Position numbers and translations under genes: made by a program. A DNA stretch of 16,514 nucleotides, taken from IMG/VR virus record IMGVR_UViG_2681813234_000010, positions 1 through 16,514 of that record. One strand, written 5' to 3'. This DNA is from a virus. Taxonomy: Duplodnaviria > Heunggongvirae > Uroviricota > Caudoviricetes. Each line of letters begins with the position of its first letter. The first letter of the stretch is position 1. Positions 6,110-10,287 of this stretch are shown one piece after another. Below the pieces are notes generated by a model that did not search any database, was not told the origin of the DNA, and saw only the letters and a list, made by a program, of their open reading frames with translations.

Positions 6110-6838
6110 ATGAACAGAAAGCAATTCATCCAGTCACACGGAGCTACTTGCAGTAACTGGACGTGGAGTTGGTCATTTGTTAACCATGAAAAGAAGATGG
6201 TCATCTTTGGGTCATGGGATGTTGAGAGTGAACAAGAGCGGTCTGTAATACTCCGGGAGAAATGGGAATACAACTCAAACAACAAAAAACAACCGGGATA
6301 CACCCAGGCACTGGAACACATCCGTTTAGCCCATGAAGGCTACGAACTTTACACCTTCAATATGGTTTTCGCAGAACACCCTGAGAATCCTGAAATTGCA
6401 GTAATCAAGGATTTTGAGCGTAAATTAAACAAGCGATATCTTCGTAAAGAAGGTGTTGTTTGGTATGCAGACTTCTTACCTAATCCATTCCCTGATGAAA
6501 TTCCTTCAGGAGAGAGTTTTGTTGAAGGTGCAAAGACTCAAGTAACAGTGAACTACTACGAACGCGATCCAAAGGCCCGACAAGCCTGCATCCAGCATCA
6601 CGGTACTACCTGTAAATGCTGTGGCTTCGATTTTGAGAAGGTCTATGGTACACATGGCCGTGGGTTCATTCATGTACATCACATCAAGCCGCTTCATACG
6701 ATTGGGGAAAACTATGTGGTCAATCCCGTAACAGATATGATCCCATTATGTCCAAACTGCCATGCAATGGTACATCACGGAAGCGAAGTACTTACAATTG
6801 CAGATTTGAAAAAGAAAATGACATTCTGGAGCGAGTAA
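6110..6838 (+). CDS. Zn-finger HNH endonuclease (McrA-like HNH) with an unrecognised ~150-aa N-terminal domain
   Basis: ORF of 242 aa with a good ribosome-binding site. The C-terminus CKCCGFDFEKVYGTHGRGFIHVHHIKPL...DMIPLCPNCHAMVHH is a classic HNH motif with CxxC...CxxCH zinc ligands, as in McrA-type enzymes. The N-terminal domain has no motif I can assign. Confidence 0.7.
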   Translation: MNRKQFIQSHGATCSNWTWSWSFVNHEKKMVIFGSWDVESEQERSVILREKWEYNSNNKKQPGYTQALEHIRLAHEGYELYTFNMVFAEHPENPEIAVIKDFERKLNKRYLRKEGVVWYADFLPNPFPDEIPSGESFVEGAKTQVTVNYYERDPKARQACIQHHGTTCKCCGFDFEKVYGTHGRGFIHVHHIKPLHTIGENYVVNPVTDMIPLCPNCHAMVHHGSEVLTIADLKKKMTFWSE

Positions 6839-7630
6839 ATGGATTTATCACAATTGAGCAACGTCGAATTGATGCAACTGAATCAGTTGACGCTTGATGA
6901 GTTAGAACGACGAGAGGTTATCAGAACCAGAAACAATCCTATCAGTGAGTACACTGAATGGCTGGTTGCGGATAAGATGCAGATGGTACTGGCTGCACCT
7001 AGTACTAAAGGGTATGACGCTACAACAACTGATGATCGAAAAATTCAGATTAAGTCTCGTAAGAATAATTTAAAAAACCAATCATTAATTCTTGGAATTA
7101 TCAGAAATTATGATCTGAACCAATTCGATGAACTCATTGCCGTAATATATAACCATGATTTCTCAATTCGTTATGCCATATCCATACCACATGAATTAGT
7201 GAAGGAATATGGTTTTTATAATGAGCATCAGAATGGGTACACTTTAAGAATAAGCAATTTATTACTTAATGATCCACGTGTAACAGATATCATTGAATTT
7301 ATTGACCCAGACACTGAACGTTCAAAGGAAGATATCACGGTGAAGCCAGATTCAAACACTATCCGGGATGTACAGACAATAGGAATGCAGACGTTTGTTG
7401 AGTACTATCAGTATGTTGAAAGTGGTATGAACACAACTGATCTTGTTGAAAAGATGGTAACTGACCATCCAGAATGGAAGGAAAGTACTGCAAGAACAAA
7501 GGCATCTTCAATGCGAAGAGTATTTAAGAATTGCGACAACGTTGAAGCACTAAAAATCATCTATAAGTCGGATCACCCAGCAATAACGGATGAGATTAAG
7601 AGTAAACTTATGACGCTTTGGGATAAATGA
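6839..7630 (+). CDS. Hypothetical protein with a PD-(D/E)xK-like (Hjc/restriction-endonuclease-fold) motif
   Basis: ATG at 6839 directly abuts the TAA of the HNH gene (TAAATG). EWLVADKMQMVLAAPSTKGYDATTTDDRKIQIKSRK fits an E ... D ... (E/Q)xK nuclease-core pattern. The fold assignment is tentative. Confidence 0.5.
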   Translation: MDLSQLSNVELMQLNQLTLDELERREVIRTRNNPISEYTEWLVADKMQMVLAAPSTKGYDATTTDDRKIQIKSRKNNLKNQSLILGIIRNYDLNQFDELIAVIYNHDFSIRYAISIPHELVKEYGFYNEHQNGYTLRISNLLLNDPRVTDIIEFIDPDTERSKEDITVKPDSNTIRDVQTIGMQTFVEYYQYVESGMNTTDLVEKMVTDHPEWKESTARTKASSMRRVFKNCDNVEALKIIYKSDHPAITDEIKSKLMTLWDK

Positions 7631-7729: not shown

Positions 7730-8041
7730 TCAAAACGGTAATTCTCCCTGCTCACAAAACCATCCATCTTCATCATGCTGCTTATAGACAGAATTCTCAG
7801 TACTCAGATAATGCAAACCTTCCAGTACTGAACTTAGCGGCGTTTCCAGTATGAACACGAAGCAATCACGCTCAATCGTGCCTAACCAGTATGTACCTTG
7901 CTGGTTCTGGAAGAAAACGCGATCCCCATATGAAAACTCATCAAGACTGTATCCCCAATAGCAGACCTTAGCCCATTGGCCTAAATGCTCAAACTGCTGC
8001 ACCCCGCGTTTGATTGCCAGATCAAAACCGTTCTTGCCCAT
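7730..8041 (-). CDS. Hypothetical protein (103 aa) in a GC-richer island
   Basis: ORF with ATG at 8041. Its composition matches the surrounding GC-rich segment rather than the AT-rich backbone. No family motif recognised. Confidence 0.4.
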   Translation of the reverse strand: MGKNGFDLAIKRGVQQFEHLGQWAKVCYWGYSLDEFSYGDRVFFQNQQGTYWLGTIERDCFVFILETPLSSVLEGLHYLSTENSVYKQHDEDGWFCEQGELPF

Positions 8042-8146
8042 ACTATGCCTCTACATTAATACTGGTTATTCATACAGTATTGCATCACATTTCGCACAGA
8101 TCCAGCCATGAAAATACTTACCACTAAAAACGGTAGAAATGTAATT

Positions 8147-8216
8147 ATCGATCATTTTAATTTGATCAATGGTTAAAAATGATCAATTATCAATCAGTTA
8201 TGACAACTGAGAGATC
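8147..8216. promoter_or_regulatory. GATC-rich divergent intergenic region with a repeated TGATCAAT motif
   Basis: Four GATC sites in about 67 bp (8150, 8164, 8181, 8213). TGATCAAT occurs twice (8163-8170 and 8180-8187). The region lies between the divergently oriented 7730-8041 ORF and the EAL-like ORF. Confidence 0.4.
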
Positions 8217-8219
8217 AAC

Positions 8220-8729
8220 ATGAAACTCGAACATTGGGCAATTCCGATCACTTCATTGGACGGTATGTTACTCGGCGTAGAGCTGTAAACCCGTGTACTG
8301 ATAAACGGTTGCCAGGTACTGATGGGGGCAGGAAAAGAAAGTGAATATATCCGTCACGTGGTCTATCAGAACCAGTTAAGAATGATTCAGGGTAAAGCCG
8401 CATGGTTCAAAGAAAAGGGGCTGTTGTGCGTGCTCAGTACTGGCACAGGTACACGCTATGAAGATCTACCATTCATACGGTACATGGCTGCTGAACCACT
8501 GCTAACGAACGGTTACGACTTAGTTCGACTAAATAGACGGTTCACTGAAGAACACATAGAGCGGCTGATCTTCCCGGTACTCATCAATAACATCATGCAG
8601 TACTGCGACAAGGTGATCGTACAAGTCAGCAGCAATCGAAATCACAGGATTTTACGAGAGTCGGGGGTATGGGCAGTACAGGGAGAGTACAGGCCAATCC
8701 GCTTTGAACAATGCGAACAACTTCTATAG
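8220..8729 (+). pseudogene. EAL-like (possibly YdiV-type degenerate EAL) ORF interrupted by a single in-frame TAA
   Basis: ATG at 8220 opens MKLEHWAIPITSLDGMLLGVEL, then TAA at 8286-8288, and the same frame continues open to 8729 (170 codons in total). The N-terminal xPIxxxxGxxxGVEL and C-terminal WAVQGEY patterns resemble EAL-domain ends. The family assignment is tentative. Confidence 0.35.
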
Positions 8730-8739
8730 GGATATAACA

Positions 8740-9012
8740 ATGAAAATACTAATCGTCATGTTGGTAGTACTGCTCACAGGCTGCGGCAGCGTACATCACT
8801 CATTCATGGATAAAGCCTTTGTCGGCAACGTTGATAACAAGGCTACAATAGTACTGTTCGACGCTGGCACACGAAACGGGGTGAAGTACTACCGGCCTCA
8901 GTTCCAGAGTGATTGTGGCCGCACCTACAATCCGATTTACCAGGTGGACAATGGCAGTACTACATGCCATATACGAGAGGAAAGAATTAAAAAAATGCAT
9001 CAATATAGATAA
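8740..9012 (+). CDS. Small lipoprotein (90 aa)
   Basis: ATG at 8740 with AGGGA 8 nt upstream. The N-terminus MKILIVMLVVLLTGCGS has a hydrophobic signal peptide and the lipobox L-T-G-C. It starts 11 nt after the EAL-like ORF stop. Confidence 0.55.
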   Translation: MKILIVMLVVLLTGCGSVHHSFMDKAFVGNVDNKATIVLFDAGTRNGVKYYRPQFQSDCGRTYNPIYQVDNGSTTCHIREERIKKMHQYR

Positions 9013-9092: not shown

Positions 9093-9122
9093 CTCATGCT
9101 GTTATTGATAAAACAGCATGAG
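9093..9122. terminator. Bidirectional hairpin terminator between convergent genes
   Basis: Perfect 11-bp stem CTCATGCTGTT (9093-9103) / AACAGCATGAG (9112-9122) with an 8-nt loop and A/T-rich flanks on both sides. It sits between the lipoprotein gene (+) and the DUF3800 gene (-). Confidence 0.55.
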
Positions 9123-9132
9123 AATATATATT

Positions 9133-10287
9133 TCAACGTAGCATGGCTAATGTTCTGGAAATTCTTATTATATCCTTCTCAATATCATCTAAAACAGGAG
9201 TTGAGTTTCTGCTTCGCTCTGCAATTTCTTGCAAAATATATCTATTTAAATGGTTGTTAACATTTTTAGGGTCAAGGTTTTCTGGTGTGGGAACAACACA
9301 GCACTGCCAATAAAAAATCTCATCTTCAAAATGATTTAGCCATTTAGAATGATATTTTTCTTTCGATTTTTTCTTGTTAAGGACATAAATGCTAGCCGCA
9401 GCTACCACATCCGCAATTTGTATACCATGCGTGACTTTAGAATCAGAAAGAATCATTGGCTCAGATAGCTTAAATGTGATCGGGATTTTTTTATCATGAA
9501 AAGTCTCGAACACAATCTCATCATTGCCTATCATCTCATTGAATGAGTCCTGATGAGTAATTAATGGTTTTGAGCTGTCGCATATAGCTCTCAATGTACC
9601 AAACTTACTACTCATATCGCACAGGAGATTATAAAGAGAAGTCGTTGTCAAATCTAATAACCACTTATCAATCCCAGTACCCTCAAGGCCTTCATATTCT
9701 TCTTCAATTATAGAGATGTTATTCTTGGCGAAATCATGAATGTCCATCATAATTTCAGAATTTTTAGAACCAACAACTGGTTCGATAAAACTATTAACCA
9801 ATATTTTACCTCGTGAAAAATCTTCAAATCGCGAATGTAATAGTTCTGAATATTCATCCTTAGCTATTAAAGAAAAATACATTATATTTGAGATGAATAG
9901 GTGAAATTTAAGGTTGTAAAAAATTGAGCTTTTAGCTGCTAATACTGGCTCAAAAATATATTCGAAGAATTTTCCTGAGAGGGCATATTTTTTTTCGTTT
10001 ACAACCACACGCATACGACCACGGAAATGATTAAGTATTTCATCTACGGCTGGTTGAAATCTCTTGCTATTTACGAGAGTGCTACCTTTTAGCTCTTCGG
10101 CTGCGATCGAGTACTTGTTTATTATATAATCAACAAACTGTTTACTTTCCTCATCATCAGTCACGACTGCTGCGTAACTAAAAAAAGGCTGATCTTTTGA
10201 AAGTAAGTTATTACCAGTGAATCCTGATTCATCGAAATATACATTCTTTACCAATTTGGTCATTCCTTTATGAGCTACAATGTGCAT
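9133..10287 (-). CDS. DUF3800-family protein
   Basis: The N-terminal VYFDESGFTG and C-terminal GIQIADVVAAA match the two conserved DUF3800 signature motifs. The start is uncertain: ATG at 10287, ATG at 10263 or TTG at 10254. None has an ideal ribosome-binding site. Confidence 0.6.
   Translation of the reverse strand: MHIVAHKGMTKLVKNVYFDESGFTGNNLLSKDQPFFSYAAVVTDDEESKQFVDYIINKYSIAAEELKGSTLVNSKRFQPAVDEILNHFRGRMRVVVNEKKYALSGKFFEYIFEPVLAAKSSIFYNLKFHLFISNIMYFSLIAKDEYSELLHSRFEDFSRGKILVNSFIEPVVGSKNSEIMMDIHDFAKNNISIIEEEYEGLEGTGIDKWLLDLTTTSLYNLLCDMSSKFGTLRAICDSSKPLITHQDSFNEMIGNDEIVFETFHDKKIPITFKLSEPMILSDSKVTHGIQIADVVAAASIYVLNKKKSKEKYHSKWLNHFEDEIFYWQCCVVPTPENLDPKNVNNHLNRYILQEIAERSRNSTPVLDDIEKDIIRISRTLAMLR

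What the first reader, a model, noticed from the sequence alone, without database searches (positions are those of the whole stretch)
8147..8216. Cluster of four GATC sites with repeated TGATCAAT in a divergent promoter region
Four GATC sites in about 67 bp is dense for AT-rich DNA. They sit in the control region between divergently oriented genes, and two lie within a repeated 8-mer. Closely spaced GATC sites in promoters are the hallmark of Dam-methylation-dependent epigenetic switches and of SeqA binding in Gammaproteobacteria. This could make expression of the island genes phase-variable or replication-coupled.
Basis: partly seen in the sequence, partly recalled or inferred. Interest (0 to 1): 0.4.

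Follow-up and report, generated by a model that had tools for sequence, protein, structure and literature searches.

The report
Dam-sensitive promoter switch of a prophage gene
The four GATC sites lie in the promoter of a prophage gene related to Salmonella STM1697 (a flagella-master-regulator inhibitor), and two of them sit in what looks like an OxyR/Dam on-off switch, although this copy has weak binding sites and a broken gene.

Summary
GATC lies at 8150, 8164, 8181 and 8213, and TGATCAAT at 8163 and 8180, between a minus-strand 103-aa ORF and a plus-strand gene starting at 8220. Within this window the clustering is only marginal (p about 0.045 to 0.11). The real evidence is comparative.

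The plus-strand gene is a shortened relative of Salmonella STM1697, an anti-FlhD4C2 EAL-like protein, carried as a prophage accessory gene. In 11 diverged lineages its promoter is TTGNNN-17 nt-AATTAT. GATC1 (8150) and GATC3 (8181) are invariant and 30-32 bp apart.

Each of these two GATCs ends an OxyR-type half-site, the same layout as agn43, Mu mom, P22 gtr and opvAB. Homologues carry near-perfect half-sites. The window allele has weak ones (6/10 and 7/10). GATC2 is just a TTGATC variant of the -35 hexamer. GATC4 overlaps the ribosome-binding site.

Chromosomal STM1697 has a similar site, and a published methylome reports one stably hemimethylated GATC there.

Best reading: a new member of the Dam plus LysR-type (probably OxyR) epigenetic switches. 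Here it is in a degenerate allele, upstream of a gene inactivated by a nonsense codon (8283-8285). Nothing was tested experimentally.

The parts
7730..8041 (-). Divergent 103-aa ORF of unknown function (phrog_2100)
   Evidence: ORF list. PHROG hit E 1.4e-10. No Pfam hit. The same gene is divergent from the EAL-like gene in L007, L013, L015 and L039, but it is replaced by other genes in L010, L017, L005 and L006.
8060..8079 (.). LexA (SOS) box-like palindrome TACTGGTTATTCATACAGTA, about 20 bp upstream of the minus-strand ORF's ATG
   Evidence: One mismatch to TACTGT-N8-ACAGTA. Equivalent CTGT-N8-ACAG boxes are visible in L007, L010, L013, L015, L017, L006 and L039. This belongs to the divergent gene's control, not to the GATC switch.
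8138..8152 (+). Upstream OxyR-type half-site candidate (HS1), AATGTAATTATCGAT, ending in GATC1
   Evidence: 6/10 to ATAGnTnnnAnCTAT. PWM score 4.6 bits (p 0.0017), below the 5.9-18.0 range of validated half-sites. The same position scores 8/10 in L001 (AAAGGTTATACCGAT) and 8/10 in L017 (TTAGCTTAAACCGAT).
8150..8153 (.). GATC1, invariant in the family; about -47 from the predicted transcription start
   Evidence: Invariant columns G46-C49 in alignment A4. It is retained inside a 45-bp divergence hot-spot.
8162..8167 (+). -35 hexamer TTGATC, which contains GATC2 (8164-8167)
   Evidence: TTG is invariant. The hexamer varies (TTGATC, TTGACT, TTGATT, TTGCCA, TTGCGA, TTGCTA, TTGATA), always exactly 17 nt before the -10 hexamer, in 11 lineages.
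8169..8183 (+). Promoter-spacer OxyR-type half-site candidate (HS2), ATGGTTAAAAATGAT, ending in GATC3
   Evidence: 7/10 to the consensus. PWM score 8.4 bits (p 0.0002), at the low end of true sites. The same position scores 9/10 in L015 (ATAGGTAAAAGCGAT), 9/10 in L017 (ATAGGTATTAACGAT) and 8/10 in L001 (ATAGTCAAGACCGAT).
8181..8184 (.). GATC3, invariant; directly abuts the -10 hexamer (about -16)
   Evidence: Invariant GATCAAT in A4. It is also kept in the distant homologues L005, L018 and L006 as AAAAAATGATCAAT.
8185..8190 (+). -10 hexamer AATTAT; the predicted transcription start is near 8197
   Evidence: Conserved spacing and sequence across lineages. The start site is inferred, not mapped.
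8188..8200 (+). Perfect IHF core consensus TATCAATCAGTTA (WATCAANNNNTTR), with an A-tract upstream
   Evidence: 9/9 match. About 0.01 such hits are expected in the region. It is perfect or near-perfect in most homologues. Its function was not tested.
8213..8216 (.). GATC4, overlapping the Shine-Dalgarno GAGAG (8209-8213), 4 nt before the ATG
   Evidence: Seen directly in the sequence. Present only in the window clade and lost in L004. The 15-mer ending in it scores -15 bits as a half-site. Other lineages (L005, L006, STM1697) also have a GATC within 20 nt of the ATG.
8220..8729 (+). STM1697-like (degenerate EAL-like) gene, here a pseudogene: GAA to TAA nonsense at codon 22 (8283-8285)
   Evidence: Intact 169-aa product in L001, L002, L003, L004 and L025. 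Match to PDB 5hxg (STM1697): E 2.5e-15, and E 2.3e-30 for the family profile. The TAA is seen.
8740..9012 (+). Downstream lipoprotein gene (MKILIVMLVVLLTGC...), probably co-transcribed
   Evidence: ORF. A homologous lipoprotein follows the EAL-like gene in L006, and short genes follow it in L007, L010 and L013. A terminator-like hairpin lies at 9093-9122.

Best explanation
The GATC cluster is the promoter-operator of a two-gene prophage accessory operon. The first gene is a shortened homologue of the Salmonella anti-FlhD4C2 factor STM1697.

The sigma-70 promoter is TTGATC (8162-8167), 17 nt, AATTAT (8185-8190), with a predicted start near 8197. Two GATCs matter. GATC1 (8150, about -47) and GATC3 (8181, about -16) each form the 3' end of a 15-bp LysR/OxyR-type half-site. 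The two half-sites are 31 bp apart, which is the spacing used by reduced OxyR, and they bracket the -35 hexamer.

Inferred mechanism, by analogy with agn43 and gtr(BC): a tetrameric LysR-type protein, most likely OxyR, binds the unmethylated half-sites. It occludes the promoter and shields both GATCs from Dam (OFF state). If Dam methylates them first after replication, the protein cannot bind and the promoter is free (ON state). This gives heritable ON and OFF lineages.

GATC2 is a by-product of one -35 variant. GATC4 overlaps the ribosome-binding site and has no supported role.

In this window the operator is a diverged allele with weak half-sites, and the first gene has a nonsense codon. This copy is therefore probably a weakened or decaying version of the switch.

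Shown here: the anatomy, the conservation, the similarity to validated sites, and the in vivo hemimethylation of the STM1697 homologue's site (from the literature). Inferred: the identity of the binding protein, the direction of regulation, and phase variation itself.
For: 1. GATC1, GATC3 and the TTG of the -35 are invariant in seven promoters whose proteins are 40-50% identical. The promoter geometry is identical in 11 lineages.

The half-site ending in GATC1 scores 8/10 in L001 and L017. The background rate for 9/10 or better is 1.8e-4 per position.

3. Validated OxyR/Dam sites have the same layout, with half-sites ending in GAT|C and partners 31-32 bp apart: agn43, Mu mom, P22 gtr and opvAB.

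4. A PWM was built from those known half-sites and used to scan about 295 kb of fetched loci for paired sites. Among the 45 best-scoring of the 56 paired sites of at least 14 bits, every one but a single site in L001 is either a control or a promoter of this gene family. L039 scores 34.1 bits, equal to true sites; L017 scores 26.6. In the window itself, the top 3 of about 198,000 tests all fall at 8138-8183.

5. L039, a full-length prophage homologue, has four GATCs, including G|ATCGGTAATAACGAT|C, one base different from gtr OxyR(A).

6. Chromosomal STM1697 has a paired site of 22-28 bits. Its regulatory region has 3 GATCs, one stably hemimethylated in vivo (PMC7708049 Table 1, locus 'STM2047'). 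The identity of that locus was proven by an exact primer match.

7. Between two prophages that are otherwise 96-97% identical, the operator is a divergence hot-spot: 20 of 45 positions differ against 29 of 398 in the flanks (p 7e-10). Both outer GATCs are nonetheless kept.
Against: - The window's own half-sites are weak: 6/10 and 7/10, or PWM 4.6 and 8.4 bits against 5.9-18.0 for validated half-sites in leave-one-locus-out scoring. The paired score is 11.4-12.5 bits against about 30-35 for true sites scored with the PWM trained on them.
- Several lineages (L007, L010, L013, L036) lack a good half-site in the spacer while still keeping GATC3. The distant homologues L005, L018 and L006 keep only GATC3. 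Conservation of GATC3 could therefore reflect the core promoter rather than OxyR.
- The PWM rewards terminal GAT, so scoring GATC clusters with it is partly circular.
- In-window GATC density is only marginally significant.
- Two chromosomal relatives (L038, L040) have no upstream GATC.
- The STM1697 gfp fusion was low or absent in all conditions tested, so no bistability was shown even for the homologue.
- The LysR-type regulator reported to repress STM1697 expression, by an unknown and possibly indirect mechanism, is YeiE, not OxyR.
- No methylation, binding or expression data exist for this sequence. The host of the window is not identified. Dam and OxyR are assumed from its 96-97% identity to an E. 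coli prophage.
Confidence: 0.45

Rival explanations
1. The architecture is the same, but the methylation-sensitive binder is a LysR-type regulator other than OxyR. The candidates are YeiE, which is reported to repress STM1697 expression in Salmonella by an unknown mechanism, or an HdfR-like factor as at std.
For: A yeiE deletion up-regulates STM1697 by an unknown mechanism (PMC8262846). LysR-type proteins share T-N11-A dyads, so OxyR-consensus matches are not specific. The weak OxyR match of the window allele and of L007, L010 and L036 would matter less if the real motif differs. HdfR is a precedent for a non-OxyR, Dam-sensitive LysR-type factor (PMC6735912 abstract).
Against: The half-sites in L015, L017 and L039 fit the specific OxyR consensus at 9/10, and they resemble gtr and mom half-sites almost base for base. 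The YeiE motif is published only as a figure and could not be scored. Direct binding of YeiE to STM1697 has not been shown.
Confidence: 0.2
2. There is no epigenetic switch. The conserved GATCs are simply part of a conserved core promoter (UP-element, spacer, IHF site), and the extra GATCs are chance in AT-rich DNA. Dam methylates them fully, with no regulatory consequence, or with only a fixed effect on promoter strength.
For: The in-window clustering is marginal (p 0.045-0.11). GATC2 is one of many -35 variants, and GATC4 is clade-specific. GATC3 sits in a block (AAAAATGATCAATTATCAAT) that is conserved as a whole, even where no half-site pair exists (L005, L018, L006). That block overlaps a perfect IHF consensus.
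Against: GATC1 lies at about -47, in a stretch that is otherwise highly variable, and it survives a 44% divergent allele replacement. The half-sites ending in the GATCs reach 8-9/10 to a consensus that does not contain GATC. The STM1697 homologue's GATC is protected from Dam in vivo. The paired-site scan picks out this promoter family almost exclusively.
Confidence: 0.22
3. The control is replication-coupled (SeqA or hemimethylation) rather than heritable phase variation. After fork passage, or during prophage induction when Dam is outrun, the hemimethylated or unmethylated GATCs at -47, -33, -16 and +17 are bound by SeqA, or change RNA polymerase affinity. Expression is then transiently changed, as at the dnaA promoter or IS10 pIN.
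For: GATC1-GATC3 and GATC3-GATC4 are 31 and 32 bp apart. That is about three helical turns and, from established knowledge, within the range for cooperative SeqA binding. One GATC lies in the -35 and one abuts the -10. The element is on a prophage that replicates rapidly on induction, and an SOS box sits 100 bp away.
Against: This does not explain the OxyR-like sequence around the GATCs in homologues. SeqA needs only GATC spacing, yet GATC2 and GATC4 are not conserved. No tool here can test SeqA binding.
Confidence: 0.1

Closest known systems
agn43 (flu) OxyR/Dam phase-variation switch of E. coli (cryptic prophage CP4-44)
   Same: Both have three GATCs within 32 bp. The outer two are 32 bp apart (31-32 here), and each ends an OxyR half-site (ATAGAATAAAACGAT|C and ATCGTTTATATCGAT|C). 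A CGATCAAT context is present at one site. The site overlaps the promoter or start region so that OxyR would repress. Both are on prophage-derived DNA.
   Different: In agn43 the site spans the transcription start and the early transcribed region. Here it brackets the -35. The middle GATC of agn43 lies in a half-site, whereas here it lies in the -35 hexamer and is dispensable. The cargo is an autotransporter, not an EAL-like protein. Binding and phase variation are proven for agn43 and untested here.
P22 / Salmonella gtr OxyR/Dam switch
   Same: It is a phage-borne accessory operon. Its half-sites are separated by 17 nt (the reduced-OxyR mode), and one GATC lies at -33 in the promoter. The half-site ATCGGTAACAACGATCAATTA is about 80% identical to L015's ATAGGTAAAAGCGATCAATTA and one base different from L039's ATCGGTAATAACGAT.
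   Different: gtr has three half-sites (A, B, C) and two alternative OxyR positions, one activating and one repressing, with paired GATCs 13 bp apart in A and C. Only two half-sites are evident here, each with a single GATC, and no third good half-site exists in the window.
Salmonella STM1697 (STM14_2047) regulatory region
   Same: The downstream gene is homologous (5hxg, E 2.5e-15 to 2.3e-30). The shared 11-mer TCGATCATTTT is present at the first GATC. There are three GATCs upstream, including one close to the start codon. A pair of OxyR-like half-sites lies 31 bp apart. One GATC is hemimethylated in vivo.
   Different: STM1697 is chromosomal and full length (235 aa). Its GATC spacing is 18 bp rather than 14/17. 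It is reported to be repressed by YeiE (mechanism unknown) and induced inside host cells. Its regulation by Dam has not been analysed, because the fusion was silent.
opvAB OxyR/Dam switch of Salmonella
   Same: It is a horizontally acquired, AT-rich locus. OxyR sites are paired at 32-bp spacing. OBSB, GATCGATTTTAATTAT, resembles window 8150-8164, GATCATTTTAATTTG. A CGATCAAT context is present upstream. Structured promoter variation with conserved GATCs has been reported for it.
   Different: opvAB has four OxyR sites far upstream (-161 to -42), and OxyR acts as an activator there. Here the sites overlap the core promoter.

Membership tests
OxyR/Dam epigenetic switches (agn43, gtr, opvAB, Mu mom) | Two or more GATC sites embedded in OxyR half-sites | tested here: inconclusive
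   In the window, GATC1 and GATC3 end 15-mers that match the OxyR half-site at only 6/10 and 7/10 (PWM 4.6 and 8.4 bits, against 5.9-18.0 for true sites). The orthologous positions in L001, L015, L017 and L039 score 8-9/10. The feature is met for the family and borderline for this allele.
OxyR/Dam epigenetic switches (agn43, gtr, opvAB, Mu mom) | Half-sites spaced for a tetramer (7-nt gap, or 16-17-nt gap for reduced OxyR) | tested here: met
   The start-to-start distance is 31 bp in the window and 31-32 bp in L001, L017, L015 and L039. This matches agn43 (32), mom (31), gtr (32) and opvAB (32).
OxyR/Dam epigenetic switches (agn43, gtr, opvAB, Mu mom) | The site overlaps or adjoins the promoter so that binding changes transcription | tested here: met
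   The predicted promoter TTGNNN-17-AATTAT is conserved in 11 lineages. The half-sites lie at about -59 to -45 and -28 to -14. The promoter is predicted, and the start site is not mapped.
OxyR/Dam epigenetic switches (agn43, gtr, opvAB, Mu mom) | Methylation blocks OxyR binding and OxyR blocks methylation; differential methylation in ON and OFF cells | not testable with these tools
   This needs gel shift or footprinting and methylation mapping. The only indirect support is the hemimethylated GATC upstream of the homologue STM1697.
OxyR/Dam epigenetic switches (agn43, gtr, opvAB, Mu mom) | The host encodes Dam and OxyR | not tested
   The window holds no host genes. It is 96-97% identical to a prophage of E. 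coli AREA_C483, and relatives are in Scandinavium, Lelliottia, Pseudescherichia and Enterobacter. From established knowledge, all Enterobacteriaceae have Dam and OxyR.
pap-type Lrp/Dam switches | Two GATCs about 102 bp apart inside Lrp sites, with a PapI-like co-regulator | tested here: not met
   The best Lrp consensus match is 11/15, with 1.4 such hits expected by chance in the region. The spacings are 14, 17 and 32 bp. No PapI or PapB-like gene is nearby.
Fur/Dam switch (sci1 T6SS type) | A GATC inside a Fur box that overlaps the promoter | tested here: not met
   The best Fur-box match is 11/19 (1.3 expected by chance), and 10/14 for the 7-1-7 model (0.2 expected). Neither is conserved in register.
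SeqA-sequestered GATC clusters (oriC, dnaA promoter) | Several GATCs on one helical face within about 31 bp | tested here: inconclusive
   The spacings of 31 and 32 bp fit. The criterion is non-specific, however, and two of the four sites are not conserved.
STM1697/YdiV EAL-like anti-FlhD4C2 proteins (the regulated gene) | Sequence homology to STM1697, including the C-terminal region needed for function | tested here: met
   phmmer against 5hxg gives E 2.5e-15 (P0001) and 7.6e-23 (P0003), and the family profile gives 2.3e-30. The C-terminal 80-90 residues align. The window clade lacks about 50-66 internal residues. FlhD binding was not tested. The window copy is a pseudogene.

The most novel reading that the evidence does not exclude
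A family of lambdoid prophages carries a portable module with three linked features. It has an anti-FlhD4C2 (STM1697-like) gene. That gene sits behind a Dam plus LysR-type epigenetic switch whose operator diversifies by allele replacement while its two GATCs stay fixed. The module lies back-to-back with an SOS-box-controlled gene.

In lysogens the phage would switch flagellar synthesis off in a heritable subpopulation, for example to block flagellotropic phages or innate immune detection. The same logic would apply to chromosomal STM1697, where the hemimethylated GATC has been seen but never explained.
Probability: 0.25. Interest if true: 0.7.

Novelty: new member of a known kind. Interest (0 to 1): 0.5.

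Why it matters
Only a handful of Dam-dependent epigenetic switches are known: pap-type fimbriae, agn43, gtr, opvAB, std, sci1 and Mu mom. Almost all of them control surface structures.

If confirmed, this would add a switch that controls a cytoplasmic regulator of the flagellar master activator. It would be carried by prophages in at least five enterobacterial genera. It would also give a concrete hypothesis for two loose ends in the Salmonella literature: the unexplained hemimethylated GATC upstream of STM1697 (STM14_2047), and the unknown mechanism by which a LysR-type factor represses that gene.

The two operator alleles in near-identical prophages are a natural experiment on how half-site quality tunes switching.

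For this particular window the practical importance is low. The regulated gene is inactivated and the operator looks weakened.

Tried and rejected
- **Literature search for TGATCAAT.** It returned only unrelated primers and barcodes.
- **Near-identity search of the whole window against 50,697 phage genomes.** No match.
- **E. coli complete genomes.** Only 1 of 5426 carries the locus. The L039-type allele is absent.
- **Other regulator consensus sequences.** Fur, FNR, CRP, Lrp, ArcA, H-NS, Fis and DnaA were scored over 8130-8222. None exceeded chance convincingly. Only IHF (perfect) and OxyR stood out.
- **A sigma-28 or sigma-54 promoter.** Considered by eye and rejected, because neither consensus is present.
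- **The minus-strand promoter-like hit TTGTCA-16-GATCAT (8206-8179).** Rejected as the divergent gene's promoter. It is not conserved in L005, and it lies more than 130 nt from that gene's ATG, beyond the LexA box.
- **The idea that the boxes bind the divergent 103-aa protein.** Rejected because L010 and L017 keep the boxes without that gene.
- **A portable-module test.** The pattern GATCNNT-N23-25-GATCAATWWTCAAT was searched in 2.9 million viral contigs. Convincing matches lay only upstream of this gene family. The other hits lie in unrelated sequence, mostly inside coding regions, and look like chance matches.
- **Protein search seeded with the Enterobacter full-length homologue.** It did not retrieve STM1697. 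STM1697 was found instead in a mislabelled 'phage' contig.
- **The YeiE binding motif.** It could not be obtained as text.
- **cos or pac function.** Rejected, because the cluster lies 2.85 kb upstream of the small terminase gene and inside a promoter.
Full report
**Observation**

GATC occurs at 8150, 8164, 8181 and 8213. TGATCAAT occurs at 8163 and 8180 and nowhere else in the window. The sites lie in the 178-bp, 31% G+C intergenic region between a minus-strand 103-aa ORF (7730-8041) and a plus-strand gene whose ATG is at 8220.

On its own the clustering is weak evidence. Four sites in 67 bp is reached by 4.5% of dinucleotide-preserving shuffles and 11% of uniform placements. The wider run of six sites in 151 bp (8099-8249) is reached by 0.35% and 1.5%.

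**Context**

The window is one end of a lambdoid prophage. It carries a serine recombinase at 1-1236, then accessory genes, then small terminase (11069), large terminase (11523) and a lambda-type portal (13955). It is 96-97% identical to a prophage of E. coli AREA_C483, the only one of 5426 complete E. coli genomes with the locus.

The gene downstream of the cluster has no Pfam hit. It is nevertheless homologous to Salmonella STM1697 (PDB 5hxg): E 2.5e-15 for the window-clade protein, 7.6e-23 for a Lelliottia relative and 2.3e-30 for the family profile. STM1697 is an EAL-like anti-FlhD4C2 factor (PMC5622320 abstract; PMC8262846).

The window clade lacks about 50-66 internal residues. In the window itself codon 22 is TAA where five relatives have GAA, so this copy is a pseudogene. 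A lipoprotein gene follows at 8740-9012 and also follows the Enterobacter homologue.

**Comparative anatomy**

I collected upstream regions from relatives in Scandinavium, Pseudescherichia, Enterobacter and Lelliottia, and from metagenomic prophages. Nearly all lie just upstream of a terminase.

In seven promoters whose proteins share only 40-50% identity, a small set of columns is invariant. These are GATC1, the TTG of a -35 hexamer, GATC3 with the following AAT, and TCAAT.

In 11 lineages the best sigma-70 promoter is at the same place. It is TTGNNN (TTGATC, TTGACT, TTGATT, TTGCCA, TTGCGA, TTGCTA or TTGATA), exactly 17 nt, then AATTAT or AATATT. This has three consequences:

- GATC2 is only the TTGATC variant of the -35 hexamer.
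- GATC3 abuts the -10 hexamer, and GATC1 lies near -47.
- GATC4 overlaps the Shine-Dalgarno sequence, is clade-specific, and is lost in the Scandinavium copy.

A pattern search of 2.9 million viral contigs found this module only in front of this gene family.

**What the conserved GATCs resemble**

I fetched three validated OxyR/Dam sites. In agn43 the GATCs are at spacings of 19 and 13 bp, 32 in total. In Mu mom they are at 18 and 13, 31 in total. In P22 gtr the three half-sites are separated by 17 nt, the spacing assigned to reduced OxyR by Broadbent et al.. The opvAB sites are listed in PMC7708049 Table 2 and pair at 32 bp. In all of them the half-sites end in GAT|C.

The family here has the same layout. 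Using the Toledano consensus ATAGnTnnnAnCTAT, which contains no GATC:

- The half-site ending in GATC3 is ATAGGTAAAAGCGAT (9/10) in L015, ATAGGTATTAACGAT (9/10) in L017 and ATAGTCAAGACCGAT (8/10) in L001.
- The half-site ending in GATC1 is AAAGGTTATACCGAT (8/10) in L001 and TTAGCTTAAACCGAT (8/10) in L017.
- The background rate is 0.13% of positions for 8/10 or better and 0.018% for 9/10 or better.

L039 is a full-length prophage homologue with the same divergent gene. It has four GATCs, including G|ATCGGTAATAACGAT|C, one base from gtr OxyR(A).

I built a PWM from nine known half-sites and scanned about 295 kb of fetched DNA for pairs at 21-23 or 31-33 bp. Among the 45 best-scoring of the 56 paired sites of at least 14 bits, all but one site in L001 are either the controls or promoters of this gene family.

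**The window allele**

The window's own half-sites are weak. AATGTAATTATCGAT (8138-8152) scores 6/10 and 4.6 bits. ATGGTTAAAAATGAT (8169-8183) scores 7/10 and 8.4 bits. Validated half-sites score 5.9-18.0 bits in leave-one-locus-out scoring.

Even so, the three best paired sites among about 198,000 tests in the window all map to 8138-8183. The alternative 7-nt-gap register at 8147-8183 scores 13/20, in the top 0.1% of positions.

Between the window and the E. coli AREA_C483 prophage, 20 of 45 positions differ in 8137-8180, against 29 of 398 in the flanks (Fisher p 7e-10). Both outer GATCs are kept. The operator has therefore been replaced or has diversified around fixed GATCs. This recalls the structured promoter variation described for opvAB. 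The window, L002, L004 and L025 share the weak allele (A). L001 and L003 carry the stronger one (B).

**Link to experiment**

A 2175-bp contig deposited as a 'Salmonella phage' carries STM1697 itself. Its upstream region has GATCs at 1028, 1046 and 1097. It also has a pair of OxyR-like half-sites 31 bp apart: ATTGTTTTTTTCGAT|C and G|ATCGTTTTTATTGAT, at 22-28 bits.

Sanchez-Romero et al. (PMC7708049) list a locus 'STM2047' with three GATCs, one hemimethylated at -68. Their primer STM2047-GFP-F matches the 3' end of this ORF exactly, so STM2047 is STM1697. Counting 68 back from the ATG lands inside the GATC at 1046-1049, the one that begins the second half-site. That last step is my inference.

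A protein thus protects a GATC in the founder gene's promoter in vivo. The fusion was silent in the conditions used and the locus was not studied further. Separately, the LysR-type regulator YeiE represses STM1697 by an unknown mechanism.

**Mechanism proposed**

A LysR-type tetramer, most likely OxyR, binds the two unmethylated half-sites on either side of the -35. It blocks RNA polymerase and shields GATC1 and GATC3 from Dam. Methylation of either site prevents binding and leaves the promoter active. This is the agn43 and gtr(BC) logic.

The anatomy, the conservation and the resemblance to validated sites are shown here. The binder, the direction of control and heritable switching are inferred.

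**Rivals**

- Another LysR-type protein such as YeiE could be the binder. This could not be scored, because the motif is available only as a figure.
- The GATCs could be conserved as part of the core promoter or IHF site, with no epigenetic role. This is favoured by the distant homologues that keep only GATC3 and by lineages with poor spacer half-sites.
- SeqA or hemimethylation could give replication-coupled control. The 31 and 32 bp spacings fit, but nothing else supports it.
- Lrp and Fur models fail at the consensus level.

**Known or new**

Searches for the motif, for Dam, OxyR and EAL terms, for prophage EAL-like and FlhD terms, and for STM1697 found no description of this switch. I rate it a new member of a known kind. 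Interest is moderate. The family-level prediction is testable and ties together two unexplained Salmonella observations, but this window holds a weakened operator in front of a dead gene.

Noticed in passing
window 8060-8079: A LexA/SOS-box-like palindrome, TACTGGTTATTCATACAGTA, lies about 20 bp upstream of the minus-strand 103-aa ORF. CTGT-N8-ACAG boxes occupy the same place in L007, L010, L013, L015, L017, L006 and L039, even where the divergent gene is a different one. The divergent accessory gene may therefore be SOS-induced.
   Followed up: partly
window 8283-8285: The STM1697-like gene has TAA where L001, L002, L003, L004 and L025 have GAA (codon 22), so the window copy is a pseudogene. 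An in-frame ATG at 8322 could still give a 135-aa fragment.
   Followed up: yes
window 8137-8180 vs L001 9523-9568: There are two sharply different alleles of the 45-bp operator segment in prophages that are otherwise 96-97% identical: 20 of 45 positions differ against 29 of 398 in the flanks (p 7e-10). Both outer GATCs are kept.
   Followed up: yes
window 8188-8200: A perfect IHF core consensus, TATCAATCAGTTA, with an upstream A-tract overlaps the predicted -10 and start region. It is perfect or near-perfect in most homologues. Its role is unknown.
   Followed up: partly
window 8118-8136: A dyad, TTACCACTAAAAACGGTAG (CTACC-N9-GGTAG in L015, L017 and L001), lies just upstream of the first half-site. 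It is conserved in several lineages but not all. No factor has been assigned to it.
   Followed up: no
L041 1016-1061 (Salmonella STM1697 upstream): Chromosomal STM1697 has an OxyR-like half-site pair 31 bp apart containing GATC 1028 and 1046. The locus called 'STM2047' in PMC7708049, which has a hemimethylated GATC at -68, is this gene, as shown by an exact primer match.
   Followed up: yes
L041 (OR851295.1): This record is deposited as 'Salmonella phage S.Kent 1-2-1'. It is a 2.2-kb contig carrying STM1697 and flanking chromosomal-looking genes, so it is probably host DNA mislabelled as phage.
   Followed up: no
window 8213; L005 about 3994; L006 about 1691; L041 1097: [quoted passage not shown] This is unexplained.
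   Followed up: no
agn43 L020 168-175; P22 gtr L023 about 2127-2120 (minus strand); opvAB (PMC7708049 Table 2); window 8180-8187: The context CGATCAAT recurs at one GATC of several independent OxyR/Dam-regulated regions, and also here. This hints at an extended recognition element or at common ancestry of these modules.
   Followed up: partly
window 6110-7630 and 9133-10287: The neighbouring accessory genes are an HNH endonuclease followed by a DUF6998 protein (overlapping stop and start at 6838/6839) and a DUF3800 protein on the minus strand. These could be defence-type cargo. They were not examined.
   Followed up: no
L015 1-100: A second, full EAL-domain gene (PF00563, 228 aa) lies about 3 kb upstream of the STM1697-like gene in the L015 and L016 prophages.
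   Followed up: no
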